Shown: positions 16,722 through 51,139, counted from the first letter of the stretch. The stretch: 57,994 nucleotides of DNA from a virus (IMGVR_UViG_3300044971_003295:1-57994); one strand, 5' to 3'. Notes: a model not told the origin generated them from the sequence alone. Made by a program: numbers and translations.

Positions 16722-16757
16722 CTTGACAGAAATCATCGACGTCAGTAAGGTACTTAT

Positions 16758-36595: not shown

Positions 36596-36901
36596 ATGCG
36601 TTATCGTGTAGCACTAGGCGAGGTTATTCGTGAGGAACGATTAGCACAGCAACTATTCCAGCGAGAGATTGCTCGTAGAGGCGTAATCTCGGTTGGACAC
36701 CTCAGCGATGTTGAGCGAGGTCAGAAAGAGATTTCGTCTGAACTCTTAGACGGAGTTGCGGGTGGGCTTGGCGTAAAAGCATACGAACTCGTAATACGAG
36801 CAGGTCTAAAAATGGCAGGACAAGAGATACCAGACACGCCAGCCGAACTGCTCGACACCGCACTACAATTTGGATTTGACAAAGAACTCACAAATCACTA
36901 A
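36596..36901 (+). CDS. XRE-family HTH regulator, ClgR-like
   Basis: LGEVIREER..Q...REIA....IS.G.LS.VERG.KE.SSELL matches the actinobacterial ClgR pattern. Confidence 0.75.
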   Translation: MRYRVALGEVIREERLAQQLFQREIARRGVISVGHLSDVERGQKEISSELLDGVAGGLGVKAYELVIRAGLKMAGQEIPDTPAELLDTALQFGFDKELTNH

Positions 36902-36940
36902 ACTCATTACATCAAGCAACACCAAAAACTAGGAGAAAAA

Positions 36941-37420
36941 ATGTCAGAAAAAATTTCAGTTCAGGGTCTAGTGGCAACAACACCACGACACCTCATTACG
37001 CAAGACGGACTACCGATTACCTCGTTCCGTATGGCAAGCACTCACCGCAAGTTCGACAGAGTTAGCAAAAAGTGGGTGGACGGCGAAACTAATTGGTATA
37101 CCATTACGGCGTTTCGTCAGTTGGCAATCAACATAGCAGGTTCGGTTTCTAAGGGCGAGCGAGTTATGGTCAGCGGTGCGTTGCGAGTTCGTGATTGGGA
37201 TAACGGCGAGCGAGCAGGAACTTCTGTTGAGATTGAGGCAGAGGCAGTTGGACACGACCTAAATTGGGGAACAGGAACTTTCACCAGAACTATTCTTGTG
37301 CGTGAACCAGATGAAGAGCCAGACGAGCCAGAAACCTTTGCTAAGATTGTAGTAGAGCCAGAGGCTTTGACTATGCCACCAACCAAAGAAACACCAGCAC
37401 CAGAACCAGAAATGGTCTGA
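36941..37420 (+). CDS. ssb: Single-stranded DNA-binding protein (actinobacterial type)
   Basis: G....P......G....SFR.A...R.FDR....W.DG.T.W....AFR.LA.N...S..KG.RV.V.G.L..R.W. Confidence 0.9.
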   Translation: MSEKISVQGLVATTPRHLITQDGLPITSFRMASTHRKFDRVSKKWVDGETNWYTITAFRQLAINIAGSVSKGERVMVSGALRVRDWDNGERAGTSVEIEAEAVGHDLNWGTGTFTRTILVREPDEEPDEPETFAKIVVEPEALTMPPTKETPAPEPEMV

Positions 37421-37427
37421 TAGAATT

Positions 37428-37504
37428 GGAGTGTCGGGTTTGCCCCCTCGTTTATCCCGACACTCCATAGCCAATCGGGTTTGCCCCCTCATTTACCGAT
37501 TGGC
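37428..37504 (+). ncRNA. Twin hairpins with C-rich loops (candidate anti-RBS sRNA)
   Basis: 11-bp and 9-bp perfect stems of different sequence with near-identical loops TTTGCCCCCTC(G/A)TTTA. Confidence 0.5.
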
Positions 37505-37510
37505 AAAAGA

Positions 37511-37551
37511 AAGCCCCTGCGTTGAGTTTACTCCGCAGGGGTTTTCGCTTT
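37511..37551 (+). terminator. Intrinsic terminator
   Basis: GCCCCTGCG...CGCAGGGGT followed by TTTCGCTTT. Confidence 0.75.
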
Positions 37552-37672
37552 CTTGTAGCAGCCAGAAATAAAAAATAAAAACCGCTAATAAGTTATGAAC
37601 CTGTTATCCGCCAACTTGCCACCAACGCCATTTCTTCGCTATAATAATTACACAAGCAAACGAGAGGACACA

Positions 37673-37936
37673 ATGCTTTCACCACTAGAAAAATACCCAG
37701 ACCAATCGCTAACAGAACTATTGCCACAATGGTTATGGGGAATTACCATAAAGAATTACAAAGACAAAATTGTAAAACGAGTTCTATGGCAAGACGGAAG
37801 TATTACGCTTACTTTCTGGGAACGACCAGAACTGCGAACCTACCAATACGAACACACAAACACAATGGACTTTCCAACAACAGCCGAGTATGTCGCTTGG
37901 TTGCCAACACTAGAAAATTGGAACGGAGTAAAGTAA
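37673..37936 (+). CDS. Hypothetical early protein
   Basis: TTGCCA-18-TATAAT promoter; GAGAGG RBS. Confidence 0.65.
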   Translation: MLSPLEKYPDQSLTELLPQWLWGITIKNYKDKIVKRVLWQDGSITLTFWERPELRTYQYEHTNTMDFPTTAEYVAWLPTLENWNGVK

Positions 37937-38160
37937 TGGGATACAGCAACTACCCCGAGGGGTCAATGATGGGGTCAGGCATTTATTCAGTAGAAGTTGA
38001 GTATGATGAGTTCTTCTGCGAAAATTGCGAAAAGACCAACGAAGAGGGAACAACCTCAACTGATGATTGGGGCAACTACATTGTTGAGTGCGAGTTCTGT
38101 AATTACACGCACAAGGAGAGTAGCCTGAAACAAGACCGAGACGACTACTACCAAGATTAG
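37936..38160 (+). CDS. Acidic Zn-ribbon protein
   Basis: TAATG overlap; CENC...CEFC. Confidence 0.65.
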   Translation: MGYSNYPEGSMMGSGIYSVEVEYDEFFCENCEKTNEEGTTSTDDWGNYIVECEFCNYTHKESSLKQDRDDYYQD

Positions 38161-38357
38161 TCAAACAACCCGAGCAAGTTGTAAAACTGCTCACCACGCC
38201 TCGGGCGGAAAAATAAAAAATTTTTGCTGCTACGCAGCAAAAAATAAAAAATAAAAGCCTCATTTATAAAATGAACCCGCCGACCCCGACTTGCTAATGT
38301 CGCCCAAGTGTGTTTAGATTGTAGTGTGGAACAACCCCCACAAATGAGGAGAACAAA

Positions 38358-38801
38358 ATGTCGGAAACTAACTACAACCCAGACTTCCTAACCGAAGACC
38401 AAATCCGTATCAACTTGCTACAAGAGCAAGCAACAGCACAGGCAACAGAGTTGTCGAACACCATTGACCGCCTAAAATCAAAGACACAGCGAGTAAGCGA
38501 CCTCAATGATGAAAAGTATCGTGCCTTTGAGATTATCAAAGACGCAATCGAAAGCGACGACATTGAGGCTGACGCTGATTGGCTCAAAGAAGTTGCCGAG
38601 GTATTCAGTTGGGAACTCAAACGAGAAGTAAATGTGAGGTTCACAATCACAGGAACGGCTAGTGTAAGTCTGCCTTACGGCAAGGAACTAAGCGACTTCT
38701 CTTTCAGTTCGTCAGATGTTTCGATTGATTGTGATGGCTGGAACAATGATGCCGAGGTATCTGTCGAAGACCACCAACTCGAAGACATAGACGAAGAGTA
38801 A
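38358..38801 (+). CDS. Cassette gene: acidic coiled-coil protein
   Basis: Promoter plus GAGGAG RBS. Confidence 0.75.
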   Translation: MSETNYNPDFLTEDQIRINLLQEQATAQATELSNTIDRLKSKTQRVSDLNDEKYRAFEIIKDAIESDDIEADADWLKEVAEVFSWELKREVNVRFTITGTASVSLPYGKELSDFSFSSSDVSIDCDGWNNDAEVSVEDHQLEDIDEE

Positions 38802-39007
38802 ACCTGCGACCTGAGCAAGTCCTAAAACTGCTCAACAAACACCGCCGCGAAAAATAAAAAATTTTACGGGGCTACGCCCCGTAAAAATAAAAATCAAAAT
38901 CTTCATTTATAAATGAACACGCCGACCCCCGACTTGACTTATGTTGCGTTGTGTGGTTTGATTATAGAGTAGGGCAAATCGACAATCCTACAAAGGAGAT
39001 GGTTGCT

Positions 39008-39355
39008 ATGAGCAACGACAACAACGAGGGTGTAAAGCCCGACAACATTTCAGACAGCCCTGAAATTGTTGTTATCACCAGCACCAAAGTTCGCAAGGCT
39101 CACGCCGACTTTGTTCAGGCAAAGTTAGACGAGAACAACGCAAAGGAACGCAAGGCAAAAGCCGAGGCAATTCTTCGTGAGGCTCTCGGTGAGTTCGGCA
39201 AAGTTGGATACTTTGGCAAGACCAAAGCGTTCAGCCTTGTATCAAGCAAGAACACCAGCGTCAAGCGTGATGTTCTAGAAGAAAAATACCCTGTCGCTTT
39301 CGCAGACGAAGAAGTGTGGAACATCACTCCTTACGACTACATACGCACAGCGTAG
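39008..39355 (+). CDS. Cassette gene: hypothetical protein
   Basis: Promoter plus AAGGAG RBS. Confidence 0.75.
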   Translation: MSNDNNEGVKPDNISDSPEIVVITSTKVRKAHADFVQAKLDENNAKERKAKAEAILREALGEFGKVGYFGKTKAFSLVSSKNTSVKRDVLEEKYPVAFADEEVWNITPYDYIRTA

Positions 39356-39679
39356 TTCTTCACAACCTAAGCAAGTTGTAAAAAGGCTTACCTTGTTAGG
39401 TTGGGTAGGTGGTAGGTGTGTTCTGTGAGGCACACCTATCACCGCCGCCGAAAAATAAAAAATTTCCGCTACGCGGAAATAAAAATAAATTTTCCGCTAC
39501 GCGGAAAAATAAAAAAAATAAATTTCCTCGTTAGCGGGGCTACGCCCCGCGACCGAGGAAATAAAAAATAAAATCAAAACCATCATTTATAAAAATGACG
39601 CCGCCGACCCCGTTTGCGTATCGTTGCGTTTTGTGGTTAGATTATAGTGTGAGGACAATCTCACAAGAAACGAGGAAAA

Positions 39680-40021
39680 ATGTCGGAAAAGGTTATCATC
39701 ACAATCCAAATGGACGCTCAGGAAGTCTGGTCTAATGTGCTAGGTTCTGCTTGGGAAGATTGGGATTGGTGGGAAAAAATCAAATACAGCGAAGGTTCTG
39801 ATTGGGATAAGGTAGGCGAAATTACGCTTTCGATTACCGACCCAAATGACGAGGAAAAGGTTATTACCAAAACCCTCGGCGTTCAGGATTTGGCAAAGGC
39901 TTACGCCGAGTTAGCCTCTAAGAACTACGGCGGAACAAATCTAGACATACACGACCTAGACGCTGTGTATGGCGATTGCGTCTTACAGCAAGCAGTTCTC
40001 GGTGATGTTGTCTATGGATAA
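39680..40021 (+). CDS. Cassette gene: acidic phage protein (DA..GD..LQ....G.VVYG)
   Basis: Promoter plus AAACGAGG RBS. Confidence 0.75.
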   Translation: MSEKVIITIQMDAQEVWSNVLGSAWEDWDWWEKIKYSEGSDWDKVGEITLSITDPNDEEKVITKTLGVQDLAKAYAELASKNYGGTNLDIHDLDAVYGDCVLQQAVLGDVVYG

Positions 40022-40129
40022 CACTCGACAATCGTTGAGGAAGATAGCCCGAGTGTTCTACGGAATAGGAAACTTTTTTATGTCCGTAGAACACAGGGTT
40101 TATCTGAAACAACGCAGAAAGGAAAAGTA

Positions 40130-40504
40130 ATGAAAACGAGTTGGGATACAAACCGCAAAAAGAACCTAATTCCGAATTACAAGATTGACGAAAAACTAAA
40201 AACCTTTGAGAGTTTTGAGAATTACAACAGAACTATCACCGCTGTTCGTAATGGCTCTCTCTACTCAATCACTCATTGGGATACAGTAATTCTGAATTAT
40301 GATGTTGATAACTCAGAAATCTTGTTCTTCCGGTCTTACTACATCAGCAACACAACAAGTAAATTGGTTGGCAGACTTATCCGAGCATTTCCGCAAGGAA
40401 CTTTTGATAGACTGCTAGAACGGCAACGACCACAAGACCGCTCACGCCTAATGCGTATGCGTAAAGGCAGTAGCAACCAACAGCCAGAAATCATTTACGC
40501 CTAA
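40130..40504 (+). CDS. Cassette gene: hypothetical protein
   Basis: GAAAGG RBS; Y.I..W.T.I...S.TTSK motif. Confidence 0.7.
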   Translation: MKTSWDTNRKKNLIPNYKIDEKLKTFESFENYNRTITAVRNGSLYSITHWDTVILNYDVDNSEILFFRSYYISNTTSKLVGRLIRAFPQGTFDRLLERQRPQDRSRLMRMRKGSSNQQPEIIYA

Positions 40505-40675
40505 CATTTGCCCTCACCGCAAGGTGGGGGCATTTGGCGTTCCAAATAAAAAATAAAAAATAAAATCAAAAGCCTCATTTAGAAAAAGACACCGCCAGCC
40601 CCGAGTTGCGAAATGTCGTAGGTTCGTGAGAAGATTATTATGCGAGTATCTCTCGCAGAAAACGAGGTGATTACT

Positions 40676-40924
40676 ATGGCAGAAATGCCCAATCTACACA
40701 TCTGGACTTCTAACCACACTTACTTACGAGATGGCACAAATCAAGTAAGTATGAGCGTTAGAACCTACATCAAAAACCTTGATGATGACTACAACAACAG
40801 CACAGCAATTTCCGAGGCACAAGTTATTTTTAGCGTTGAGGGATTTGCTAGGTTTGTCGGAGAGATGAACGAACATCTCGAAAAAATCAAGGCTGAGGTA
40901 GCCGAGGTTTCCGAAGTAGCGTAG
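40676..40924 (+). CDS. Cassette gene: hypothetical protein
   Basis: Promoter plus GAGGTG RBS. Confidence 0.7.
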   Translation: MAEMPNLHIWTSNHTYLRDGTNQVSMSVRTYIKNLDDDYNNSTAISEAQVIFSVEGFARFVGEMNEHLEKIKAEVAEVSEVA

Positions 40925-41151
40925 CCAGACCCAAGCCCACCCGAAAGGGTGGGTGAGGGGTCGGCAAAAATAAAAAATTTTGCGCTACGCGCAAAAATAA
41001 AAAAAAATAGAATTACACCGCTGCGCGGTGAAATTCTAAATAAAAAATAAAAACCTTCATTTATAAAATGAACGCCGTCGCCCCGTTTGCGTAATGTCGC
41101 CATTTCCGATAAACTAGAACTACGGAGTGTGTCCGTAGAAAACGAGGAGTA

Positions 41152-41373
41152 ATGAGTTGTAAGTGTGAAGACCGCCCCGCTTGCGGTTGCCTTAGCGAAA
41201 GCGGATACTACGATTACGCCGACCCACACGACTACGCAGACGAACAGCGTGAAAAGATGTTCTCTGACGAAGACGGCTGTGAAATGTGCGGTGTTCGCTG
41301 GAACAGGCAAGACAACGAAGACGACATAACTCAGGGTTTCCACGCTGAGTGTGCCGACACTATCGTAATCTAA
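41152..41373 (+). CDS. Cassette gene: Cys-rich acidic protein (CEDRPACGC)
   Basis: Promoter plus GAGGAG RBS. Confidence 0.7.
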   Translation: MSCKCEDRPACGCLSESGYYDYADPHDYADEQREKMFSDEDGCEMCGVRWNRQDNEDDITQGFHAECADTIVI

Positions 41374-41434
41374 CAAAAACCTAACCTGAGTAAGTTATCA
41401 AACTGCTCACCCAACAAAAATGAGAGGAAACAAA

Positions 41435-41599
41435 GTGCCAAAATACAGAATAACCTCAACTATTCAGTTTGAGTTTGAGGGAGAGTTTGCCAACGAAGCA
41501 GAAGCAGAAAAGTTTGCTGGCAACTACGACAACCTACAATACTCAATGCCTGTCGAACTAGACATTGAGGAACTAGAAGACGAGGAAGAAGATGAGTGA
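41435..41599 (+). CDS. Cassette gene: very acidic 54-aa protein
   Basis: GAGAGG RBS, GTG start, MPKYRITSTI...DEEEDE. Confidence 0.65.
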   Translation: MPKYRITSTIQFEFEGEFANEAEAEKFAGNYDNLQYSMPVELDIEELEDEEEDE

Positions 41600-41843
41600 A
41601 ACCAGAGAAAACCCATACTTGTCTTACTCGCTAGATAGTCTAGGAACTATCGCACAGCAATACGCTCTAATGCTTGGTGGTGGGCAAACCACGCTAGGCA
41701 ACGGCGACAATCTAGGCGAGGCATACGAACAAGTATGCGAGGCAATCGAAAGTCGTCAGGAAACGGATTATTGTAAGCACGGAAACTTCCGTTGGACAGA
41801 CCACGATATTCCTTGCGGTGCTTGCGAGTTTGGCGAGGACTAA
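41592..41843 (+). CDS. Cassette gene: protein with C.H...C..C motif
   Basis: Coupled ORF. Confidence 0.65.
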   Translation: MSETRENPYLSYSLDSLGTIAQQYALMLGGGQTTLGNGDNLGEAYEQVCEAIESRQETDYCKHGNFRWTDHDIPCGACEFGED

Positions 41844-42034
41844 CCAGCAACCAGATACCAGCCGAAAGGTTGGTATTTGGTGTTGCGAAAAATAAAAAAT
41901 TTGCTTCGCAAATAAAAAATAAAAATCAAAAGCACAGATAAAAAAGCATCGCCAGCCCGCCGCTTGACTTTCCAAGCGTTTCGTAGTTAGATAGTAATGT
42001 GAGGACTACACTCACAGAAAACGAGGATAGTAGT

Positions 42035-42319
42035 ATGTGCGACAACCCTGAACACAACCACGAAATACCTGAAATGAGCGAGGCAGAAGTAGAAAAACTG
42101 TTTATGCTCGCAGGTGCGTTGGTGCTAGGTATTCAGTATTCCTTTGACCCGTCAGTAAATTTCCAAGAAGCACCAGAGGAAATTATAGAAATGGGGAAAT
42201 GGGAAATGATGGTCAGAACCATAAGTATCAAAAACGAACTAGGTGAACTGATAGACACAATCCTAGAACGGCAAAGCGACAACAAATTTGAGAACATAAT
42301 CAAAGACTTTGATTTGTAA
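42035..42319 (+). CDS. Cassette gene: hypothetical protein
   Basis: Promoter plus AAACGAGG RBS. Confidence 0.7.
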   Translation: MCDNPEHNHEIPEMSEAEVEKLFMLAGALVLGIQYSFDPSVNFQEAPEEIIEMGKWEMMVRTISIKNELGELIDTILERQSDNKFENIIKDFDL

Positions 42320-42381
42320 GAGCACGACCTAAGCAAGTCGCAAAAAGGCTTACCCACCTAAACGAGAGGAACAGATAACTA

Positions 42382-42723
42382 ATGGCAGACTTTTACGGCG
42401 TATCAGTTTTGCTACCCCACGCAAAGGCTATTGCTTGGGATACTTGCCACAAGATTTATATCTTGATGGACAACGAACAAGTAATAAAAATGCGTGAATA
42501 CGGCTACGGCGACGAAAATGACCCAGACAGCCTAATCACCGCAGAGCAAATGACCAAGCAAGAAATGTTAGACACTATCCAAAAGTGGTATAACAGCAGT
42601 TGCTCATTACGCTTTATCAACGCAGTATCAACTGTGCCAGAAGGCACAGACCCAAATGAAGGGTTCGAAGTTATTATCGGTCAATTTGACGACGAGGACG
42701 ACGACACCGACGACGAGTATTAG
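42382..42723 (+). CDS. Cassette gene: hypothetical protein (AWDTCHKIY...W...C.LRFI)
   Basis: GAGAGG RBS. Confidence 0.7.
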   Translation: MADFYGVSVLLPHAKAIAWDTCHKIYILMDNEQVIKMREYGYGDENDPDSLITAEQMTKQEMLDTIQKWYNSSCSLRFINAVSTVPEGTDPNEGFEVIIGQFDDEDDDTDDEY

Positions 42724-42944
42724 ACCCCCCTCGCAACCTGAGCAAGTTGATAAACTGCTCACTAAACACACCGCCGCAAAAATAAAAAATTGCGCTCCGC
42801 GCAAAAAATAAAATTGCCGCTGCGCGGCAAAATAAAAATCAAAACCAGCATTTATAAAATGCAGGCCGTCGCCCTCGTTTGACGGACACGTCCGTTTGTG
42901 ACAGACTAGTTATGCGGACACCGTCCGTAGAAATCGAGGACAAA

Positions 42945-43388
42945 TTGGAAACTGAAACAGAGAGAGTCTGTGTCTTAGAAATCAACTCAGACTGCACTTG
43001 CGAAGAGTATGACGAAGAAACAGGCGAAAGCAAAGTAGACGACAACGGCTATCCCGTTATGTCTAATTATTGCTACGGTTGCTACGATGACGACCTAGTG
43101 GCCTTGAAGTATGACGTATTACCTGAGTGGCTTGGAGCAAACGGTTGGGATACCGACACCAGAGTTACAATCAGAGGCTCAAGGATGGGTTGGACAAACG
43201 ATAGCGGGTATCTAACTACCACAATCGAATCAGCAGAAAAATTGCTTGATAAGTTGCGTATCAACGGCGACTACACCTTGCGATTCTATCGCAAGGGTAA
43301 GAACCTTGAAGTTGTAAGGTCAAGCCACGACGAACTTGGAGCGTTGTTTGAGTTTGAGTTAGCCGAAGAAAGTGATGAAGATTACTAA
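42945..43388 (+). CDS. Cassette gene: acidic protein (GW...SG; SHD..G)
   Basis: Promoter, GAGG RBS, TTG start. Confidence 0.7.
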   Translation: METETERVCVLEINSDCTCEEYDEETGESKVDDNGYPVMSNYCYGCYDDDLVALKYDVLPEWLGANGWDTDTRVTIRGSRMGWTNDSGYLTTTIESAEKLLDKLRINGDYTLRFYRKGKNLEVVRSSHDELGALFEFELAEESDEDY

Positions 43389-43584
43389 CAGTAGTCTACC
43401 TAGCCCTGCCGAAAGGCAGGGTTAGGCCACTTGCGGCGGAAAAATAAAAAATGCGCTACGCGCAAAAATAAAAAATAAAAATCAAAAGCTCAATTAGAAA
43501 AGCATCGCCCGCCCGCCGACTTGCGTAATGTTGCCGTTTGTGAAAGAATTGTCTTGCGGGACTATCCGCAGAAACGAGGAAATC

Positions 43585-44052
43585 ATGGGATTAGACATGT
43601 ATCTTTCGGTTCGCAAATACGCTTCGGAGTATTCAGGCGACATACCGAAAGCCGACATCGAACAGGCAATTCGCCTATTCGGTTTCAATCCGTCAGAAAT
43701 GGGTTCGGGCTACACCGCCGCAGAAATCAGACTGACCGCTATCTATTGGCGTAAAGAGAACGCTATTCACAACTGGTTTGTGAAAAATGTTCAAGACGGA
43801 ATAGATGAGTGCCAAAAAGCGATGGTATCAAGAGAGCAACTAGAAAAACTGAAATCGGAGTGTGAGGTTGTTCTAGCCTTTCCAGAGAAAGCAAGTAGTG
43901 TCTTACCGACAGCCAGCGGGTTATTCTTTGGTGGAACGGAGTTTGATGACTGGTATTATGAAGGCATCAAGATAACTCGCGACAAACTCGCTAAGATACT
44001 CACCGACCCGACCTTCAAAGATTGTGAATTTGAATACCAATCTAGTTGGTGA
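43585..44052 (+). CDS. Cassette gene: phage protein (MGLDMYL...YWRK.NAIH.WF type)
   Basis: Recognisable motif; AAACGAGG RBS. Confidence 0.75.
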   Translation: MGLDMYLSVRKYASEYSGDIPKADIEQAIRLFGFNPSEMGSGYTAAEIRLTAIYWRKENAIHNWFVKNVQDGIDECQKAMVSREQLEKLKSECEVVLAFPEKASSVLPTASGLFFGGTEFDDWYYEGIKITRDKLAKILTDPTFKDCEFEYQSSW

Positions 44053-44257
44053 TAACCGCCCTGCCCTCTCTACGGAGAGGGTAGGGTCATTGCCGCGAAA
44101 AATAAAAAATGCGCTTCGCGCAAAAAAATAAAAATTTCGCTGCGCGAAATAAAAGCAAAACCTCAATTAGAAAAGCATCGTCGTTCGCGCCGTTTGACTA
44201 AATCGCCAAACTATGAAAGACTAGTTATGCGAACGCCGTTCGCAGAAACGAGGAAAA

Positions 44258-44626
44258 ATGTCTGAAACAAAGAAAGCAGTTGTTGTTCAGCCGAACGGAA
44301 CTGCCGAAGTTATTGAGTTTACCAGCGATACCGCTCTGGCAACTCTACAAAAAGCAGTAGACGGCTACATCGAACCCGTATCCCTTGACGAGAATTTCGT
44401 TATGTGGGTAAACGAAGAAGGGCTACTACGCAACGACCTAGTATCAAACTATGTCGGAGCAATTCTTTACCAAGAGGTATTCCAAATTCCAAATCCAATC
44501 AACGGCACTATCGTCTTTACAGGCGGAACTGACGAAGAGGGCTACACGCAGGGTCTAACCACCGCACAAGTATTCGCAGCGTTGAGTATGGCGGATGTAG
44601 CCTACAAAGCATCAAACCAGCAATAA
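44258..44626 (+). CDS. Cassette gene: DUF3846-like protein
   Basis: L..LQ.AV.GYIE.V...VNEEG...N...I.G..V..G. Confidence 0.75.
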   Translation: MSETKKAVVVQPNGTAEVIEFTSDTALATLQKAVDGYIEPVSLDENFVMWVNEEGLLRNDLVSNYVGAILYQEVFQIPNPINGTIVFTGGTDEEGYTQGLTTAQVFAALSMADVAYKASNQQ

Positions 44627-44819
44627 GTTTCCCTCGAAATCACCTGAGCAAGTGGCTAAACTGCTCTCTCCTTGCCTTTGGCAAAAATAAAAATTTGCGC
44701 TTCGCGCAAAAATAAAAAATAAAAACACATTTAGAAAAGCAAGCCGCTCGACCCGATTTGCGTTTAGTCGCGTTCTGTGGCAAACTGATTATGCGGACAC
44801 TCCGCAGAAACGAGGAAAA

Positions 44820-45449
44820 ATGTTTATTGTCGAAGACATAAGAACTTGGTTTACGCCCTCAACTATCGACGAGTATCGTAGACTAATAAAACAGCCAACT
44901 CACAAAATAAATAGTGAAGATGAAGTTTGGAACAACTCTCTAAGTCTTTCTCAGTTTGTAGTCTACGGATACCCTAAGCCGAGAGATTACGGACAGGTAA
45001 ACTCAGGCTACCAACGCACTTCCGAGCCTATGAAACTAGGGTTGGTATCGCCAGAAGATTACGAGTGGCAAATTGCCGTAGAAAACTACTACCAATCAAA
45101 CTTGTTCGGTCAATACATACTGAACGATGAGATTAGAGAGCCAAAACTTGCCAAAAGTAAGTATCGCCTACACTACGCTAGGTTGCTACTTCCGTTCAAG
45201 CCCTTCCATTGGTCAAGTAGAGATTATTGGTCAAAAGAAGGCTCTCCGTTTATTCCCTGCTACTACATAGAGCGACTAGACGAAACAGGCAAAAAGGTCA
45301 GGAAATACATAGATTACTTTGCCGTAGACAACGCTTTCGTCTTAGAGCCTACGGGTTGGAACAAATCAGGCAGACGCTCACACACAATCCCCGAAGATTG
45401 GCTGAGTGGCAGACTTGATGGACTAGACGGATACGCCAAATTCGCATAA
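44820..45449 (+). CDS. Cassette gene: hypothetical protein
   Basis: Promoter plus AAACGAGG RBS. Confidence 0.7.
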   Translation: MFIVEDIRTWFTPSTIDEYRRLIKQPTHKINSEDEVWNNSLSLSQFVVYGYPKPRDYGQVNSGYQRTSEPMKLGLVSPEDYEWQIAVENYYQSNLFGQYILNDEIREPKLAKSKYRLHYARLLLPFKPFHWSSRDYWSKEGSPFIPCYYIERLDETGKKVRKYIDYFAVDNAFVLEPTGWNKSGRRSHTIPEDWLSGRLDGLDGYAKFA

Positions 45450-45683
45450 CCCACGCCCTACACCGCAAGGTGTAGGGTTTGGCGTTTGCGGAAAATAAAA
45501 AAAATTCGCTGCGCGAATAAAATAAAAAATAAAAAATCAAAAAACACATTTACAAAAAACACGCCGCGCCCGCCCGTTTGACTTTCACCGCTATCGGTGG
45601 CAAACTATAAATGTAGAGCGGCGGCCTTTCGTTCCCCCCCCCCTGATACCGCCGCTCTACACCTACAAATCGAGAGGAATAAA

Positions 45684-46055
45684 ATGTCGCTAGATTGGAA
45701 CGCGTCAAAAGTCCCAAACATAGATTGGGACAACGAAGATGAGTCAAACCGAGTTGGTCGGTTCGCCTTTGTCTTGATGTTTCTCGGTATCGGTTCGGTA
45801 TCGGAAACCAATGTTGCCGAAGTAATTGTTCGCAACAAAATCCACGAGGCTTTGTTCGGGCCAGCGTATTACTACATAGACGAGGCCACAGGCGTTCGCA
45901 AGAGCGCTTACGACGCCGAGTTTATTCGCAAAATGGTCGGATACAGCACCAATGTTAGCACCGAGCCAAGAGCGAAGTGGCTAAAGCGTATGACCGACAG
46001 CGCAATCGCAGACCAAGTTAGGCAAGCCCCCCAAGCCGAGCCAGCGTTAGTCTAA
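45684..46055 (+). CDS. Cassette gene: hypothetical protein (MSLDW...G..TNV)
   Basis: GAGAGG RBS. Confidence 0.7.
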   Translation: MSLDWNASKVPNIDWDNEDESNRVGRFAFVLMFLGIGSVSETNVAEVIVRNKIHEALFGPAYYYIDEATGVRKSAYDAEFIRKMVGYSTNVSTEPRAKWLKRMTDSAIADQVRQAPQAEPALV

Positions 46056-46112
46056 GCACCAAGACCTGAGTATGTCTAAAACTGCTCACCCACTCCAACA
46101 GCAAGGACAAAA

Positions 46113-46292
46113 ATGCCAAAAAAATCAGTAGTTGATACGAGTGCCAAAGTGTGCGAAATGTGCCTACGAAATCCAGCAAAGGTTGATGTAGTAGTGCCAA
46201 TGGGCTTAGGCGAAAACTACGGCTGGGCTTATTGCGAAATGTCGCTATGCGCCGTATGTGTCGAAAGTCTGCCAGACCTGAAAACCAAATAG
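46113..46292 (+). CDS. Cassette gene: 59-aa CxxC...CxxC protein
   Basis: AAGGA RBS; below the track cutoff. Confidence 0.6.
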   Translation: MPKKSVVDTSAKVCEMCLRNPAKVDVVVPMGLGENYGWAYCEMSLCAVCVESLPDLKTK

Positions 46293-46480
46293 AACCGCAC
46301 CTGAGCAAGTGATAAAACTGCTCGCCTCAAAAAATAAAATAAAAAATTGCGCTCCGCGCAAAATAAAAAATAAAAGCAAAATCCTCATTTAGAAAAGCAT
46401 CGCCGTCGCCGCCGTTTGCGAATGTCAGCGTTATGTGGCAAACTGATAGTGCGGAACAACCCCCGCAGAAATGAGCAATC

Positions 46481-47155
46481 GTGGAAACAGCAACTACCGC
46501 AACACTTGAGGTTCTAAATAAAATGTTCCTCGAAAACACTGGTCGCAGTTTTTTGGACAGTGGCAATGCCTACGGTCGGCACTTTGAACGCCAGCAGTCG
46601 ATTAGTAACGCCGAGCGTGAGCAGGGAAAAACCAGCGTCGATGAATGGGGAAACATCACCGTTCCATTATTCCCAGCAATTTCGGCTGTGGTTGAGTATG
46701 ACCCTGAACTAAATGAACAGTGGAAAAAATTCGATGCCGAACACCCTGACGATTCTTGGCACGATACGATGGGAATGTTCTTAGATGAACTAGGCGTTTC
46801 AAGGACTGGCGACCTTTACAGTGACAGTTTCCGCTACGGGGTCAATTCTTACAACAGCGAAAACTACCTGAGCCAAGATTTCCAAGCCGAGATTTTTGCT
46901 TACGGTTTCGAGATGTATGCCCTGCTTCAGATTCACGGTGGCACTGACATTCGCGGAGGATACACCGCACCCGTAGTGTTCAAGTGCGACTGGGAATCCT
47001 TAGTGACTCTAGGGCAGACAGCGTTCCTGAACTGTGCCGAATGTGATTTTGATTTAGTGATGAATGTTGTTGACGGTATCGTCGAATCAACTGACGACAT
47101 ACCTGACAACTGGGAACTGAAAAACGGTTGCCCACGCTGTAAATCGAAATTCTAA
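46481..47155 (+). CDS. Cassette gene: phage protein (ENTG..FLDSG...GR; QIHGG.D.RGGY..P) with Zn ribbon
   Basis: Promoter, GTG start, enzyme-like conserved motifs. Confidence 0.75.
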   Translation: METATTATLEVLNKMFLENTGRSFLDSGNAYGRHFERQQSISNAEREQGKTSVDEWGNITVPLFPAISAVVEYDPELNEQWKKFDAEHPDDSWHDTMGMFLDELGVSRTGDLYSDSFRYGVNSYNSENYLSQDFQAEIFAYGFEMYALLQIHGGTDIRGGYTAPVVFKCDWESLVTLGQTAFLNCAECDFDLVMNVVDGIVESTDDIPDNWELKNGCPRCKSKF

Positions 47156-47366
47156 CCCCGAACCACCGCCGAGCATTAGACCCCCTAATGCTCGGCGGAA
47201 TCGGCGTTCAAAAATAAAAAAATTCGCTACGCGAATAAAAATAAAAAATAAAAAATAAAATCAAAAGCTCAATTATAAATCGTCGTCGTCGGCCAGGTCG
47301 TTTGACTCGCGACCGCCGATGCGATAGTCTGGTGATGCGGGTCGCCCCCGCAGAAAAGAGTGGAAA

Positions 47367-47798
47367 ATGATTGTACAAATTGTTGAAATGGAGAGAGACG
47401 AAGGTTGCGAGCACTTGGATGATGGCAAGTGCCAGCAGCACCGCATCGTTGGAGAAATCGACACAGACTCAGTGTTCTGGGCCTACGCCGAATTTCTAGA
47501 CAACGGCGAGTGGGTAAGAGATGACGGCGTTGTTTCTTACCAGCGCGACAGCATCGCCGTCCCTAACCTTGAGTATGACCCCGATGTTGCCTTGTTCTTT
47601 GCGGGTCAAGGTTTGGCCAAGGTTGGTGACACCAGAGATTATGACGATTGGGTCAAACTACAGAAACAGGTCAACTGGGAAAATCGAGTTGATGGCGAGT
47701 GCGAGATTTGCCACCACGCCTATCCAGCGAACTGCACTTGCCCGAGCGATGTGGACTGTCCAAATTGCTTAGCAGGCTCAGTCTGCATCTTTCACTAG
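47367..47798 (+). CDS. Cassette gene: Cys-rich protein
   Basis: Promoter; C-terminal CEIC..C.C...CPNC...C..H. Confidence 0.7.
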   Translation: MIVQIVEMERDEGCEHLDDGKCQQHRIVGEIDTDSVFWAYAEFLDNGEWVRDDGVVSYQRDSIAVPNLEYDPDVALFFAGQGLAKVGDTRDYDDWVKLQKQVNWENRVDGECEICHHAYPANCTCPSDVDCPNCLAGSVCIFH

Positions 47799-47852
47799 CA
47801 ACACCGCCTGAGTATGCGGAGAAACTGCTCACCCAACAATAAGGAGAAACTG

Positions 47853-48014
47853 ATGACCAAAAAAGATTATCAACTTATCGCCCAAGCAATCGCTGATACT
47901 TGGTGCGATGCCGCGGCACAACTTGCCATTGCCGAGAACATCGCTAAAGCATTGGCAGACACCAACCCGTTATTTGATAGAGACCGCTTTCTAGCAATGT
48001 GCGGAGTGGCCTGA
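47853..48014 (+). CDS. Cassette gene: small protein (MTKKDY..IA...NP.FD.DRF..CG type)
   Basis: AAGGAG RBS. Confidence 0.7.
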   Translation: MTKKDYQLIAQAIADTWCDAAAQLAIAENIAKALADTNPLFDRDRFLAMCGVA

Positions 48015-48211
48015 ACCACGCCCCAGCCGAAAGGCTGGGGAACAGGCGTTCAAAAAATAAAAATAAAAATAAAAATAAAAATTTACGGCTGCGCCGCAAA
48101 AATAAAAATAAAAGCTCATTTACAAAAAGCACGCGCCGCTCGGTCGTTTGCGTAATGTTGCGTTTCGTGGCAAACTATAAGAGCAGCACCACAACCAAAC
48201 AAGGAGATCAG

Positions 48212-48451
48212 ATGCAAATCACTCACGTAGCAAAGACGGACAGCGGAGATTACACAATTTCTTCGCTACCTTGCCCAAAGTGTTCGGTAGTATTCACCAC
48301 CGAAATCACGGGCGAGCAGTTGTTCAAAATCAACAACAACGCCCTAATTCAAGACATCGGCTTAGACCTTACCGCAGACCAGCGAGAGCAGTTTATCTCA
48401 GGGTATTGCGGAACGTGCTGGGCTGAAGAATTCTTTGGGGATGAGGACTAA
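48212..48451 (+). CDS. Cassette gene: Zn-binding protein (CPKC...RE..ISG.C..CW)
   Basis: AAGGAG RBS. Confidence 0.7.
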   Translation: MQITHVAKTDSGDYTISSLPCPKCSVVFTTEITGEQLFKINNNALIQDIGLDLTADQREQFISGYCGTCWAEEFFGDED

Positions 48452-48573
48452 TGGCACAAGCAGGATACATCAATTGCTCGGGCTGCGGGCGTTTGTTCAG
48501 CGCAGAGAGCAAAGATGAAATGGACTTGCTACTCTCGCACACCTGCGAAGACGAGGAAGGAGAAGAAGAATGA
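48451..48573 (+). CDS. Cassette gene: 40-aa CxxC..H.C peptide
   Basis: TAATG overlap; GAGG RBS. Confidence 0.55.
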   Translation: MAQAGYINCSGCGRLFSAESKDEMDLLLSHTCEDEEGEEE

Positions 48574-48716
48574 ACCCCGAACTCGCGAAAAAATTCGTAG
48601 CAATTCTCAATGCTTACGAAGACCGAGAGATTAGTGCCGAAGAAGCACTAATCCGTATCCAAATCGCCGTAGCCAACGCTAACGAAGATGCGGAACACAA
48701 CGAAATCACTCTCTAA
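48570..48716 (+). CDS. Cassette gene: 48-aa helical peptide
   Basis: ATGA overlap; AAGGAG RBS. Confidence 0.55.
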   Translation: MNPELAKKFVAILNAYEDREISAEEALIRIQIAVANANEDAEHNEITL

Positions 48717-48952
48717 CGCTGCCCGAAGCCCACACCGAAAGGTGTGGGCCTTGGCGTTTGCGAAAAATAAAAAAAAATAAAATTTGCGGCTGCGCCGCAA
48801 AAATAAAAAATAAAACCAAAAGCTCATTTACAAAAGACACGCCGCTCCGCCCGTTTGACTTCCGTTGCCGTATGTGGCAAACTAGTATTGCCAGGCAGTA
48901 AGTAATCCCCCCCCTTTCGTTGCTTACTGCCTGGCCTTATCTAAGGAGATAG

Positions 48953-49135
48953 ATGACCACCGCAACCACCGACAGAATAGAAATGTTGAGCCGAAACTTG
49001 GCCAGACACCAAATCATTATTTCGCTACTAAGCAAAAAACAGAAATGCGATGAAAGCGAAAAACCCTGCGACATTTGCTACGGATTTGATTTAGCAATCA
49101 AACTTGTCCAAGACCAACTAGAACCCGAGAATTAG
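48953..49135 (+). CDS. Cassette gene: hypothetical protein
   Basis: AAGGAG RBS. Confidence 0.65.
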   Translation: MTTATTDRIEMLSRNLARHQIIISLLSKKQKCDESEKPCDICYGFDLAIKLVQDQLEPEN

Positions 49136-49143
49136 GAGAACCA

Positions 49144-49311
49144 ATGATACCTTGCGAAGTGTGCGGAAAGGACACCGCCGACACAGGCGAGCCTTGTGAT
49201 GAGTGTATGAACCCGTCATTCACCAAGCCAGACTTTGGCAGCAGACCTGCTGATGAGTATTTCGCCTACATAAAGAGCGACGCTTACATCGCCTATCTCA
49301 ACAGCAACTAG
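49144..49311 (+). CDS. Cassette gene: 55-aa CxxC...CxxC peptide
   Basis: AGGAG RBS. Confidence 0.55.
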   Translation: MIPCEVCGKDTADTGEPCDECMNPSFTKPDFGSRPADEYFAYIKSDAYIAYLNSN

Positions 49312-49497
49312 CACCGAGCCGCCCTGCCACTTTCGAGTGGCAGGGTTTCGGCTTTGCGGAAAATAAAAATTGCTGCTCCGCAGCAAAAATAAAATTTGCT
49401 GCTCCGCAGCAAAAATAAAAATCTAAAAGCTCATTTATAAAAGACACGCGCCGCTCGGTCGTTTGACTAAGTGCCGTAATTGTGAAAGACTATTCTT

Positions 49498-49683
49498 GGA
49501 CCCAAACGCTGGCTGGTAAAGGCTATGGGCGTTGGCTATGGCGGTCATAGCAATCGGCTTACCAGAGCCGACACAAGATAGCGGAGAGAGTGAATAAAAT
49601 ACCGCTCGCGACCTTAGGCAGTTGCTACCGATTACAAGCCTATAACTGCGTAAGGTGCTAGGGAGAGCAACCCCCTAGCACCG
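49498..49683 (+). ncRNA. Candidate structured RNA carried as cassette cargo or leader
   Basis: Starts at the predicted TSS; at least five helices and a possible pseudoknot; no ORF with an RBS. Confidence 0.5.
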
Positions 49684-49711
49684 AACTCCAACCCAACAAC
49701 AAGGAGATACA

Positions 49712-49954
49712 ATGCCAGAAACACAAATACTCGCAAGGTATGAAGAAGACGGGCTTGCCTGTGAGATTACTTGCGAAAACGGAGAGTATTGGTTTGTAGA
49801 TACTTACCGCACCACCGAAGATAACGAGATGGTATGGCTCAACAATACCGGCTCGCTTACCACCTACGCCGAAGCGTTCGACGCCTTCCGTCTAGACCTA
49901 GACTGCTTCTTCGGCAAGGAGTTTCACCCAACAATGCTAGTCCGCAACAAGTAG
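49712..49954 (+). CDS. Cassette gene: hypothetical protein
   Basis: AAGGAG RBS. Confidence 0.65.
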   Translation: MPETQILARYEEDGLACEITCENGEYWFVDTYRTTEDNEMVWLNNTGSLTTYAEAFDAFRLDLDCFFGKEFHPTMLVRNK

Positions 49955-50153
49955 CAACCACCGACCCCTGCCGAAAGGCAGGGTGTTCGGCGTTTCAAAT
50001 AAAAAATTTGCGGCTGCGCCGCAAAAAATAAAAAGCGGCTACGCCGCAAAATCAAAAGCTCATTTACAAAAGACACGCCGCTCCCCCGATTTGCGAAGTG
50101 TGCCAAATTATGTAATGATTAGATGGGGAACTATCAAAAACAAGGAGAACCTG

Positions 50154-50420
50154 ATGAACAATCAACCACTCAGCGCCACAATCAACAAAGCCCGAGCAAT
50201 CACTTATGTTGCCAGCAACAACCCTGATGCCTTCACCACCGCTCAACTAATCCAGATTATCAAATACGCTAACGCTGTCCTTCACACCACCAGCATAGCC
50301 TTATACCCAGACGGCTTGCCGAAAACGCCTGCTGATGTGAAAGACCAACTAGAGTCAGTAATTGCCAGAGAAGTAGCAATCTTTGAGAGAGAAGTTAGAG
50401 CAACTCTGCCTAAATTCTAA
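50154..50420 (+). CDS. Cassette gene: hypothetical protein
   Basis: AAGGAG RBS. Confidence 0.65.
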   Translation: MNNQPLSATINKARAITYVASNNPDAFTTAQLIQIIKYANAVLHTTSIALYPDGLPKTPADVKDQLESVIAREVAIFEREVRATLPKF

Positions 50421-50548
50421 CCCCGAACTGCCCTGCCTAGTCCCCCCACTAGGCAGGGTTTCGGCGTGAAAAAAATTTGCCGCTGCGCGGCAAAAAAATT
50501 TGCCGCTGCGCGGCAAAAATAATTTTGCGGCTGCGCCGCAAATAAAAT

Positions 50549-50797
50549 CGCTCAACGCGCTTCGCTTGGCCGCCGCGATCTTCCCCGGGTCGATAGCTGA
50601 ACGCTCCTTCGTCGCTTTTCAGCCTCCCCGGGTTCAGACGCTGCTGCCTTCGCTTCGGCGTTTCGCGAATAAAAATGCCGCTTTGCTTCGCTCAGCTGCT
50701 TAGGTCTCCACGGCCGGCGGGCAATCCCGGCTTCGCTGCGCTCATCGGGATGCACCTTGGCCGGGTCGAACCACGCAGCCTCCGCTCGCGACGCGGC
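50549..50797. other. GC-rich non-coding insert rich in GCTTCGC/GCTGCGC mini-hairpins
   Basis: Interrupts one repeat unit between its hairpins and its CATTTA box. Confidence 0.6.
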
Positions 50798-50926
50798 AAA
50801 ATAAAAAATAAAATCTAAATCTAAATCTCATTTACAAAAGACACGCTGCTCCGCCCGTTTGACTAACGTGCCGTTTCGTGATTGACTTAGTGTGCGGGCA
50901 AGCCCGCAGAAAACGAGGTGATGTAA

Positions 50927-51139
50927 ATGAGTTTCGGAATTGATGTTCGGTATCCCGATGTCTTTGTCCAACTTACGGGCGAAGATGGGAACTCCGTTTC
51001 CATTATGGGTCGGGTTGCTAAGGCACTAAGAGATGCTGATGTGCCTAAGGAAGAAATTGACGAATACTACGCTCAATCAATGAGCGGAGATTACGACAAT
51101 CTTCTACGCACCGCTGCCGAGTGGGTATCGGTAGGGTAA
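50927..51139 (+). CDS. Cassette gene: small protein (V.L.G.DGN...I.G.V..AL...SGDY..LL type)
   Basis: Recognisable motif; GAGGTG RBS. Confidence 0.75.
   Translation: MSFGIDVRYPDVFVQLTGEDGNSVSIMGRVAKALRDADVPKEEIDEYYAQSMSGDYDNLLRTAAEWVSVG

What the first reader, a model, noticed from the sequence alone, without database searches (positions are those of the whole stretch)
37428..37551. Twin-loop RNA whose loops are complementary to the array's ribosome-binding sites
Seen: after ssb there are two hairpins with different stems but almost the same loop, followed by a terminator. Loop 1 contains CCTCGTTT (37446), the exact reverse complement of AAACGAGG, which is the RBS of eight cassettes (39668, 40660, 41140, 42019, 43572, 44246, 44808, 50911). 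Loop 2 contains CCTCATTT (37487), complementary to AAATGAGG, the RBS of the first cassette (38342). Established: C-rich loops of sRNAs such as staphylococcal RNAIII seed on Shine-Dalgarno sequences. Inference: a 3'-UTR-derived phage sRNA that shuts off translation of many early cassettes at once. Caveat: part of the match is generic anti-SD.
Basis: partly seen in the sequence, partly recalled or inferred. Interest (0 to 1): 0.75.

Follow-up and report, generated by a model that had tools for sequence, protein, structure and literature searches.

The report
Twin anti-RBS hairpins after phage ssb
Two conserved RNA hairpins at the end of a freshwater actinophage's ssb message carry loops that copy the ribosome's anti-Shine-Dalgarno tail and match the ribosome-binding sites of the phage's own small-gene cassettes, so they probably tune translation of those genes, but no RNA has yet been observed.

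Summary
Directly after ssb (36941-37420) lie HP1 (37427-37467), HP2 (37470-37504) and an intrinsic terminator (37509-37553). The fold has z -8.45. The two 17-nt loops are almost identical. The window is a complete 58-kb phage record, and its SSB relatives sit in Rhodoluna/Microbacteriaceae assemblies.

The two-hairpin architecture recurs in nine related phage lineages with different stems: 18 of 21 pairs change on both sides, and 0 of 500 shuffles do as well. The loop core CTC[G/A]TTT is kept in eight of them.

That core is complementary to AAA[C/T]GAGG, the RBS of nine promoter-proximal cassettes. However, seven of the eight letters simply repeat the 16S tail (CCTCCTTT). Only the G/A versus C/T position is specific.
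- That position agrees in 6 of 7 single-type lineages (lineage-level P = 5/35).
- One orthologous cassette shows a compensatory change.
- One lineage disagrees.
- Composition-matched shuffled loops reach the window's match count 6% of the time.
- Energy ranking does not single out the cassettes.

Host chromosomes carry a single C-rich-loop hairpin after their own ssb, upstream of ettA, so the element looks host-derived.

Best reading (0.45): an ssb-3'UTR anti-SD mimic that base-pairs with the cassette RBSs. It is not a 6C member. No RNA evidence was obtained.

The parts
36876..36904 (+). sigma-70-like promoter of the ssb unit (TTGACA, 17 nt, TAAACT)
   Evidence: Consensus scan, 10 of 12 matches. 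Conserved in L258, L320 and L399. Function inferred.
36941..37420 (+). ssb gene (159 aa). Its own RBS is CTAGGAGAA, not the AAAYGAGG type.
   Evidence: PHROG 44 single-strand DNA-binding protein, E 1.4e-16. RBS read.
37427..37467 (+). HP1: 12-bp stem with 17-nt loop 37439-37455. Core CCTCGTTT at 37446-37453 (G-type).
   Evidence: Stem covariation across lineages, helix 1: 10 of 12 pairs changed on both sides.
37470..37504 (+). HP2: 9-bp stem with 17-nt loop 37479-37495. Core CCTCATTT at 37487-37494 (A-type).
   Evidence: Helix 2: 8 of 9 pairs changed on both sides.
37509..37553 (+). Intrinsic terminator: G+C-rich hairpin followed by TTTTCGCTTTCTT. Flanked by an A-run upstream, so its shape is bidirectional.
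37616..37672 (+). Next promoter (TTGCCA, 18 nt, TATAAT) and RBS AAACGAGAGG of the first downstream gene (37673-37936).
38342..38349 (+). AAATGAGG RBS of cassette gene 38358-38801 (T-type, complementary to loop 2).
39668..39675 (+). AAACGAGG RBS of 39680-40021 (C-type, complementary to loop 1).
40660..40667 (+). AAACGAGG RBS, cassette start 40677.
41140..41147 (+). AAACGAGG RBS of 41152-41373.
42019..42026 (+). AAACGAGG RBS of 42035-42319.
43572..43579 (+). AAACGAGG RBS of 43585-44052.
44246..44253 (+). AAACGAGG RBS of 44258-44626 (DUF3846 protein).
44808..44815 (+). AAACGAGG RBS of 44820-45449.
50911..50918 (+). AAACGAGG RBS of 50927-51139.

Best explanation
The twin hairpins are the structured 3' end of the ssb transcript of a freshwater actinophage. 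Each 17-nt loop displays a near copy of the 16S anti-Shine-Dalgarno tail in which one letter is changed (CCUC-G-UUU and CCUC-A-UUU against CCUC-C-UUU). The promoter-proximal genes of the phage's small-gene cassettes use a matching private RBS, AAA-C-GAGG or AAA-U-GAGG. That RBS pairs with 16S with one central mismatch but pairs with the loops perfectly over 8 bp. The RNA, either as the ssb 3'UTR or as a stable decay product held between HP1 and the terminator, would bind these exposed RBSs in trans. It would compete with the 30S subunit and so lower translation (and possibly stability) of many cassette mRNAs together. ssb itself has a different RBS and would be exempt. Shown: the structure, its conservation with covarying stems, loop-core conservation, complementarity, partial G/A-C/U covariation, and target accessibility. 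Inferred: that the RNA accumulates, that it pairs in vivo, the direction of the effect (repression), and any timing. The element probably descends from a single C-rich-loop hairpin that follows the host's own ssb.
For: Structure: z -8.45. Nine lineages (window/L001/L399, L320, L007, L035, L042, L043, L377 with two copies, L280, and L290/L293 at other positions) keep two hairpins plus a terminator, each with different stems. On the model-based alignment, 98.8% of cells are paired, 18 of 21 pairs change on both sides, and 0 of 500 shuffles do as well; slid controls give 28-49% paired. A few G-U pairs on the + strand favour + strand RNA. The element starts 2-7 nt after the ssb stop and has no conserved -10. 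The terminator shields it from minus-strand transcripts. The loop core kept across the phage lineages, CTC[G/A]TTT, is exactly the part complementary to AAA[C/T]GAG. All 9 AAAYGAGG sites that precede a start codon lie in the cassette region 38.3-50.9 kb, each directly after a 5' leader hairpin. Their mean unpaired probability is 0.27-0.84. Covariation: downstream of the element, G-only lineages have 21 C-type and 0 T-type sites; A-only lineages have 2 C-type and 6 T-type (Fisher 6e-5 at site level). L320 has two G loops, and its orthologue of the first cassette reads AAAACGAGG where the window and L001 read AAATGAGG. The 7 loci with twin loops carry 4-9 strict AAYGAGG start sites per locus against 0-2 in the other viral loci. 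The ssb gene's own RBS is never complementary to its own loops, in 9 of 9 sequences. Loop 1 forms contiguous 8-bp duplexes of -11.6 to -13.0 kcal/mol with the eight C-type sites, mean -11.9 against -10.3 for the 16S tail. Precedent in the same phylum: the 6C sRNA binds mRNAs through C-rich loops without a chaperone (abstract of PMC6486639).
Against: Seven of the eight paired letters are those of the 16S tail read from a host-family genome, so most of the complementarity follows from any anti-SD-like loop. Composition-preserving shuffles of loop 1 reach its 8 SD-positioned matches in 186 of 3000 trials, and loop 2 is not distinguishable from shuffles (804 of 3000). Unrestricted duplex scanning ranks G-runs in coding regions above every cassette. 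Restricted to start regions, the cassettes rank 24-51 of 298. The C5 run of the loops is not used in the proposed pairing. At lineage level only 6 of 7 single-type lineages agree, P = 5/35. L293 has two A-type loops but C-type RBSs. L043 has an A loop with no T-type site in 10 kb. The sites counted within a lineage are paralogous and not independent. The advantage over 16S pairing is small, and it is reversed for 40660 and 50911, which pair with 16S at -14.2 and -14.8. A related hairpin follows ssb in host chromosomes that lack the cassettes, so an ssb-linked or cis role is possible. No transcript evidence was obtained.
Confidence: 0.45

Rival explanations
1. A cis-acting 3'-end element of ssb inherited from the host. 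The hairpins protect the ssb mRNA from 3' exonucleases, help termination, or serve some ssb-linked control (for example binding of SSB or another protein to pyrimidine-rich loops). Under this reading the match to cassette RBSs is a by-product of C/U-rich, anti-SD-like loops.
For: 107 of 221 SSB-related loci are host-type, with an ettA-like start 99-476 nt after ssb. In 77 of 94 distinct host spacers, a hairpin of at least 7 bp with a CCCC/CCCT loop starts a median of 10 nt after the ssb stop. One host loop even reads ACCTCCCCCTCGTTTC (L349). So the tie between this hairpin and ssb is older than the phage cassettes. The shuffle controls show that the match is only marginal.
Against: This reading does not explain why 17-nt loops with a fixed core are kept while the stems turn over. 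It does not explain why the phages doubled the hairpin. It does not explain why the same loop type sits after non-ssb genes in L290, L293 and L377. It does not explain the G/A-C/T agreement or the compensatory change in L320. A terminator is already present.
Confidence: 0.25
2. A general anti-SD mimic aimed at host messages or at SD sequences at large. The C-rich loops would soak up G-rich Shine-Dalgarno regions, including host ones, as a broad brake on translation rather than a cassette-specific one.
For: The loops are 7 of 8 identical to the 16S tail. The C5 run pairs best with GGGGG-type sites. L280 keeps twin hairpins with CCCCCTTT and CCCC loops without the CTCRTTT core, and its RBSs are of the AAAGGG kind. 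Host hairpins keep CCCCTC.
Against: The changed letter (G or A instead of C) weakens pairing to canonical GGAGG sites. The C run is not conserved across phage lineages (loops such as TTTTCTCGTTTC). Host targets were not examined.
Confidence: 0.1
3. Protein-binding hairpins. The identical loops would be recognition sites for a phage or host RNA-binding protein (S1-like, a translational repressor, or an RNase), presented twice for cooperative binding.
For: Identical loops on unrelated stems are the usual signature of a sequence-specific loop reader.
Against: No candidate protein was found. A protein site gives no reason for complementarity to the RBS or for the G/A-C/T agreement.
Confidence: 0.08
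4. A cis-acting transcription element: a put-like antiterminator or an attenuator that decides read-through of the terminator into the cassette array. Alternatively, a DNA-level hairpin signal such as an origin or priming site next to ssb.
For: Two stem-loops directly upstream of a terminator and of a long array of units.
Against: The element sits at the end of a unit, not after a promoter. Every cassette has its own promoter, so read-through is not needed. G-U pairs argue for RNA of the + strand rather than DNA. There is no similarity to any Rfam family.
Confidence: 0.05

Closest known systems
6C sRNA of Actinobacteria (Rfam RF01066; Mycobacterium B11/6C)
   Same: Two adjacent stem-loops with C-rich loops followed by a terminator. 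Host phylum Actinomycetota. In M. tuberculosis the C-rich loops are the direct mRNA-binding sites and no chaperone is needed (abstract of PMC6486639).
   Different: No match to the 6C covariance model even at E up to 10 or at gathering score. It is embedded in an mRNA 3'UTR instead of being a free-standing gene. The loops are U-flanked with a run of five C. It is phage-borne. 6C was not detected in five host-type genomes, but that search rang only weakly in its positive control.
C-rich-loop anti-SD sRNAs of Firmicutes (staphylococcal RNAIII, RsaE and similar); recalled, not tested here
   Same: Unpaired C-rich loop motifs seed on Shine-Dalgarno regions of several mRNAs.
   Different: Unrelated sequences and hosts. 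Here the loop copies the 16S tail over 7 of 8 letters, and the targets would be the phage's own messages.
3'UTR-derived sRNAs of enterobacteria (CpxQ, DapZ, SroC type); recalled
   Same: The regulator shares the terminator of a protein-coding mRNA and starts just after the stop codon.
   Different: Those depend on Hfq and RNase E processing. Neither processing nor a discrete species is shown here.
Phage-encoded sRNA PreS/LPR1 of lambda (abstract of bioRxiv 10.1101/2024.10.31.621285)
   Same: A phage RNA that acts by base-pairing during infection.
   Different: PreS acts on host genes (dnaN) with Hfq. Here the proposed targets are a family of phage mRNAs sharing one RBS.
T4 RegB and RegA (recalled)
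   Same: Phage devices that act on the SD or initiation region of many early messages at once.
   Different: Those are proteins (a GGAG-cutting nuclease and a repressor). This would be an RNA.
Hairpin after the host's own ssb, upstream of ettA, in Rhodoluna/Microbacteriaceae genomes
   Same: Same position (a median of 10 nt after the ssb stop). C-rich loop with CCCCTC, sometimes CTCGTTT. SSB 57-83% identical to the phage's.
   Different: A single hairpin, followed by a long terminator-like hairpin and ettA. No cassettes. No Rfam family. Function unknown.

Membership tests
6C sRNA (RF01066) | Two adjacent hairpins whose loops are C-rich (the family name refers to runs of C; recalled) | tested here: met
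   Loops of 17 nt with 7 C each, including a run of five.
6C sRNA (RF01066) | Scores at or above the Rfam gathering threshold (47 bits) on the family covariance model | tested here: not met
   No 6C hit at gathering score on the whole window, nor at E up to 10 on 37300-37700.
6C sRNA (RF01066) | Free-standing gene with its own promoter (recalled) | tested here: not met
   HP1 begins 7 nt after the ssb stop. The TAGAAT just upstream is not kept in relatives.
6C sRNA (RF01066) | Loops bind mRNA targets directly | not testable with these tools
   Only complementarity and partial covariation could be shown.
3'UTR-derived regulatory RNA | Lies between the stop codon and the terminator of a coding transcript | tested here: met
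   Stop at 37420, hairpins at 37427-37504, terminator at 37509-37553. Same layout in relatives.
3'UTR-derived regulatory RNA | Accumulates as a discrete RNA species | not testable with these tools
   The one RNA run that held part of the stretch (contigs only) had nothing on 37204-37873.
3'UTR-derived regulatory RNA | Conserved seed complementary to conserved target sites | tested here: inconclusive
   The core CTC[G/A]TTT is conserved and complementary. It agrees with the RBS letter in 6 of 7 lineages. However, it is largely generic anti-SD.
Intrinsic terminator | G+C-rich hairpin directly followed by a U tract | tested here: met
   True for the third hairpin only. HP1 and HP2 have no U tract and large loops, so they are not terminators.
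Processive antitermination RNA (put-like) | Promoter-proximal RNA that lets polymerase read through downstream terminators | tested here: inconclusive
   It lies at the end of the ssb unit, and each downstream cassette has its own promoter. Read-through could not be measured.

The most novel reading that the evidence does not exclude
The phage runs a private Shine-Dalgarno channel. The first genes of its accessory cassettes use an SD variant (AAA-C/U-GAGG) that the ribosome reads with one mismatch. A two-headed RNA at the end of the ssb message copies the 16S tail but carries the two matching letters (G and A), so it can out-pair the ribosome on exactly these messages. The device would have been built by doubling and retuning a hairpin that the host keeps after its own ssb, and the loop letter and RBS letter would co-evolve from phage to phage.
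Probability: 0.3. Interest if true: 0.8.

Novelty: new variant of a known kind. Interest (0 to 1): 0.6.

Why it matters
If the pairing is real, this is a phage-encoded RNA that controls a whole set of the phage's own transcription units through one shared ribosome-binding site. It would do so in Actinomycetota, which lack Hfq, by imitating the ribosome's own anti-SD tail with a changed specificity letter. That would add an RNA counterpart to protein devices such as T4 RegB and RegA. It would give a natural example of an orthogonal SD/anti-SD pair. It would also show how a host 3' hairpin can be captured with a gene and turned into a regulator. The natural G/A and C/U variants make the idea directly testable with compensatory reporters. 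If it is only a 3'-end stabiliser, the finding is an ordinary conserved terminator region with an unusual loop.

Tried and rejected
- blastn of 36900-38400 against deposited phage genomes: no match.
- Rfam at gathering score and at E up to 10: only weak terminator-driven hits and no 6C. The host ssb-ettA spacer has no family either.
- 6C in five host-type genomes: none, but the control rang only weakly.
- Exact loop patterns scanned in viral contigs (filtered in 25): only the contigs already known had the motif in a hairpin loop.
- Leader 14-mers scanned in viral contigs (filtered in 67): no new members.
- Alignment of the first-cassette protein against viral contigs: only 4 known contigs. The L007 orthologue has a plain GAGGAG RBS, so it is uninformative.
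- RNA evidence: one metatranscriptome run (contigs) held a quarter of the sampled words. When laid on the stretch it covered parts of 36892-40304 but nothing on 37204-37873. This is no evidence either way.
- Duplex-energy ranking of the whole genome and of start regions did not single out the cassettes.
- Sense match of loop 2 (CCTCATTTA) to the element upstream of some cassette promoters: rejected as the link, because relatives have other upstream elements.
- Idea that A-type loops target AAATGAG start-codon contexts: 0-3 such starts per locus, whatever the loop type. Rejected.
- Cis action on the first downstream gene: its RBS letter disagrees with the loops in L377.
- ORFs 37431-37571 (+) and 37259-37492 (-) across the hairpins: rejected as coding, because loop lengths vary by non-multiples of three and the stems covary.
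- A planned permutation test of host loops against the ettA RBS was not run, so it stays open whether the host hairpin acts as a cis anti-SD.
- Supplements of papers were not consulted.

Full report
WHAT THE WINDOW IS. The window is the whole record (57,994 bp, one contig). It is a phage. It carries a terminase large subunit, collagen-like tail fibres, a ribonucleotide reductase and an SSB, plus a tmRNA and two tRNA genes. It has no nucleotide match among deposited phage genomes. Relatives of its SSB in genome assemblies lie overwhelmingly in records titled Rhodoluna, Microbacteriaceae, Micrococcales or Actinomycetota. The host is therefore most likely a freshwater member of the Microbacteriaceae; this is an inference.

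THE OBSERVATION. The ssb gene ends at 37420. HP1 (37427-37467, 12-bp stem) and HP2 (37470-37504, 9-bp stem) have unrelated stems and nearly identical 17-nt loops: TTTGCCCCCTCGTTTAT and GTTTGCCCCCTCATTTA. A G+C-rich hairpin with a T-rich tail follows at 37509-37553. The fold is far better than shuffles (z -8.45, 0 of 200). The loop motif occurs nowhere else in the genome.

CASSETTE ARCHITECTURE.
- an A-tract;
- a -35/-10 pair of the TTGCxx / TAGAtT kind;
- a 5' leader hairpin whose stem differs from cassette to cassette;
- then AG(A)AAA-C/T-GAGG and a start codon 5-8 nt later.
The 8-mer is mostly unpaired in leader folds (0.27-0.84). Ten cassette proteins gave one Pfam hit (DUF3846) and four PHROGs of unknown function.

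IS THE STRUCTURE FUNCTIONAL? Yes, on comparative grounds.
- SSB-based searches of viral contigs (64 loci), metagenomes and genomes (160 loci) gave further phages with 'stop codon, 2-7 nt, hairpin, hairpin, terminator': L001/L399 (near-identical, with a compensatory G-C to A-T change in HP1), L320, L007, L035, L042/L044, L043 and L377.
- A covariance model built from the window's clade also recovered a second copy in L377 and a twin hairpin 1 kb after ssb in L280.
- Related hairpin pairs or single hairpins sit after other genes in L290 and L293.
- On the model-based alignment of 10 elements, 98.8% of cells pair and 18 of 21 pairs change on both sides. No shuffle of 500 does as well, and slid controls pair in 28-49% of cells. 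That alignment is fitted to the model, which favours the structure. Even so, the independent single-sequence folds give the same hairpins.
- The loops keep T-rich flanks and the core CTC[G/A]TTT, while the C run before it varies from zero to six.
- No conserved promoter precedes HP1. The terminator would stop minus-strand transcripts before they reach the hairpins, and a few G-U pairs lie on the + strand.
The element is therefore best read as RNA at the 3' end of the ssb message.

HOW SPECIFIC IS THE MATCH TO THE RBS?
- The 16S rRNA 3' end of a host-family chromosome reads ..GGATCACCTCCTTTCT.
- The loop core CCTC-G/A-TTT equals CCTC-C-TTT in seven of eight letters.
- AAA-C/T-GAGG is therefore an extended SD with one central mismatch to 16S and none to the loops.
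- Only that one letter is specific.

Within this genome the match is weak evidence:
- Composition-preserving shuffles of loop 1 reach its eight SD-positioned 8-mer matches in 6% of trials, and loop 2's single match is unremarkable.
- Duplex energies favour loop 1 over the 16S tail only slightly (means -11.9 and -10.3 kcal/mol). They are reversed for 40660 and 50911, whose GAGGTGAT pairs strongly with 16S.
- A free duplex scan ranks G-rich coding sites first.
- Among 298 mechanical start regions, the cassettes come 24th to 51st.

COVARIATION OF THE ONE SPECIFIC LETTER. The comparison between phages is the main support. A mechanical rule was used: A[C/T]GAG[A/G] after a small hairpin and 2-12 nt before a start of an ORF of at least 35 aa. 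This rule also picks up some sites inside genes. Downstream of the element it gives:
- lineages with only G-type loops (L320, L035, L042, L377): 21 C-type and 0 T-type sites;
- lineages with only A-type loops (L007, L290, L293): 2 C-type and 6 T-type sites (Fisher 6e-5).

Sites within a phage are paralogous. The fair unit is therefore the lineage: 6 of 7 agree, which random assignment reaches in 5 of 35 cases.
- L293 is a clear miss: it has two A-type loops, yet its sites are AAACGAG.
- L043 has an A loop with no T-type site in 10 kb.
- The window and L001 carry both loop letters and both RBS letters, and one orthologous cassette even differs between them (C in the window at 41140, T in L001).
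- The best single case is L320. Both loops are G-type, and its orthologue of the first cassette (51% protein identity) reads AAAACGAGG, where the window and L001 (with an A loop) read AAATGAGG.
- Twin-loop loci are also the loci rich in this RBS type (4-9 per locus against 0-2). But the two features are physically adjacent and may simply travel together.
- The ssb RBS itself never matches its own loops (9 of 9).

THE HOST CONNECTION. About half of the SSB-related loci (107 of 221) are host chromosomes in which ssb is followed within 99-476 nt by an ettA-like gene. This is a lower bound, because some use TTG. In 77 of 94 distinct spacers, a hairpin of at least 7 bp with a C-rich loop starts a median of 10 nt after the ssb stop. 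In 67 of them the loop holds CCCTC or CCCCT, and in L349 it reads ACCTCCCCCTCGTTTC. A long terminator-like hairpin and the ettA RBS follow, and Rfam has no family for this spacer.

The phage element thus looks like a captured and duplicated host hairpin. This explains the C run that the cassette pairing leaves unused. It also keeps alive a rival in which the hairpin serves ssb (or, in the host, ettA) in cis. Whether the host loop pairs with the ettA SD was not tested.

MECHANISM. I commit, at 0.45, to an anti-SD mimic in the ssb 3'UTR that pairs in trans with the AAAYGAGG sites of the cassette leaders and lowers their translation. The steps shown are the structure, conservation, complementarity, accessibility and partial covariation. 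The steps inferred are accumulation of the RNA, pairing in the cell, the sign of the effect, and any timing.

The ssb gene has its own sigma-70-like promoter (36876-36904), so the RNA may be made alongside the cassettes and act as a brake rather than a switch.

Rivals:
- a cis 3'-end element inherited with ssb (0.25);
- a broad anti-SD sponge (0.10);
- a protein-binding site (0.08);
- transcriptional or DNA-level roles (0.05).

COMPARISON WITH KNOWN SYSTEMS. It works like the actinobacterial 6C sRNA, whose C-rich loops bind mRNAs without a chaperone (abstract of PMC6486639). It also works like staphylococcal C-rich-loop sRNAs (recalled). It is built like a 3'UTR-derived sRNA (recalled). It is not a 6C member: the covariance model gives no hit and it has no promoter of its own.

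Phage sRNAs are known, for example lambda PreS, which acts on host dnaN (abstract only). Two full-text searches for a phage RNA of this kind found none: terms 'phage-encoded', 'small RNA', 'anti-Shine-Dalgarno', 'early genes', and 'UTR-derived', 'single-stranded DNA-binding protein', 'sRNA', 'phage'. The library does not hold most subscription journals, and supplements were closed.

VERDICT. This is a real, conserved, structured RNA element with anti-SD-like loops. It is a new variant of a known kind. Interest 0.6.

Noticed in passing
window 10472-10804, 16648-16722, 16858-16931: The phage carries a full-length tmRNA gene (157.8 bits, tag peptide AESRSAFALAA) together with tRNA-Met(CAT) and tRNA-Leu(TAA).
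   Followed up: no
window 38224-53281 (15 sites, e.g. 38224, 42814, 48784, 49370, 50477, 50500, 50525, 51850, 52873, 53265): Short perfect palindromes TTGCNGC-NNA-GCNGCAA flanked by A-runs lie between the cassettes (27 strand-matches against 0.15 expected). On the minus strand they look like intrinsic terminators, as if to block antisense transcription of the array.
   Followed up: partly
window 38171, 38812, 41387, 42739, 44645, 46302 (+): A conserved hairpin TGAGCAAGTnnTAAAACTGCTCA (5-bp stem, fixed 11-nt loop) occurs six times at cassette 3' ends against 0 expected. The same motif follows ssb in relatives that lack the twin loops, for example L008, L012, L020, L032 and L036. It also follows the twin hairpins in L290 and L293. 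Function unknown.
   Followed up: partly
window 38973-38987; L001, L007, L035, L042, L043, L377: A leader hairpin with covarying stems and the fixed loop GGCAAATCGACAATC precedes a gene with a canonical AAGGAG RBS and is kept across the relatives.
   Followed up: no
window 38258-38275, about 39585, about 41060: In three cassettes the element upstream of the -35 reads as an inverted repeat TCATTT-N3-4-AAATGA, which looks like a site for a dimeric DNA-binding protein. Relatives have different upstream elements.
   Followed up: partly
host-type loci, e.g. L442 10444-10615, L463, L473, L335, L349: Between ssb and ettA in Rhodoluna/Microbacteriaceae genomes, the C-rich-loop hairpin is followed by a long terminator-like hairpin with an apical GGATAAACTTATCC-like stem-loop and a T run. 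In some genomes this hairpin sequesters the ettA SD. No Rfam family matches it. It may be an unrecognised ettA leader.
   Followed up: partly
L264 (contig of L007) 12151-12230: A strong leader hairpin (z -5.1) carries ACCTCCCCCTCATTT in its apical part and ends 13 nt before the RBS AAAATGAGAGG of the next gene. Here an anti-RBS loop and its RBS lie in the same leader, so a pseudoknot is possible.
   Followed up: partly
L025, L028, L037, L045 and similar loci, just after ssb: Relatives without twin loops have arrays of CTAACGGCTCGC-like direct and inverted repeats between ssb and the next promoter. These look like iterons.
   Followed up: no
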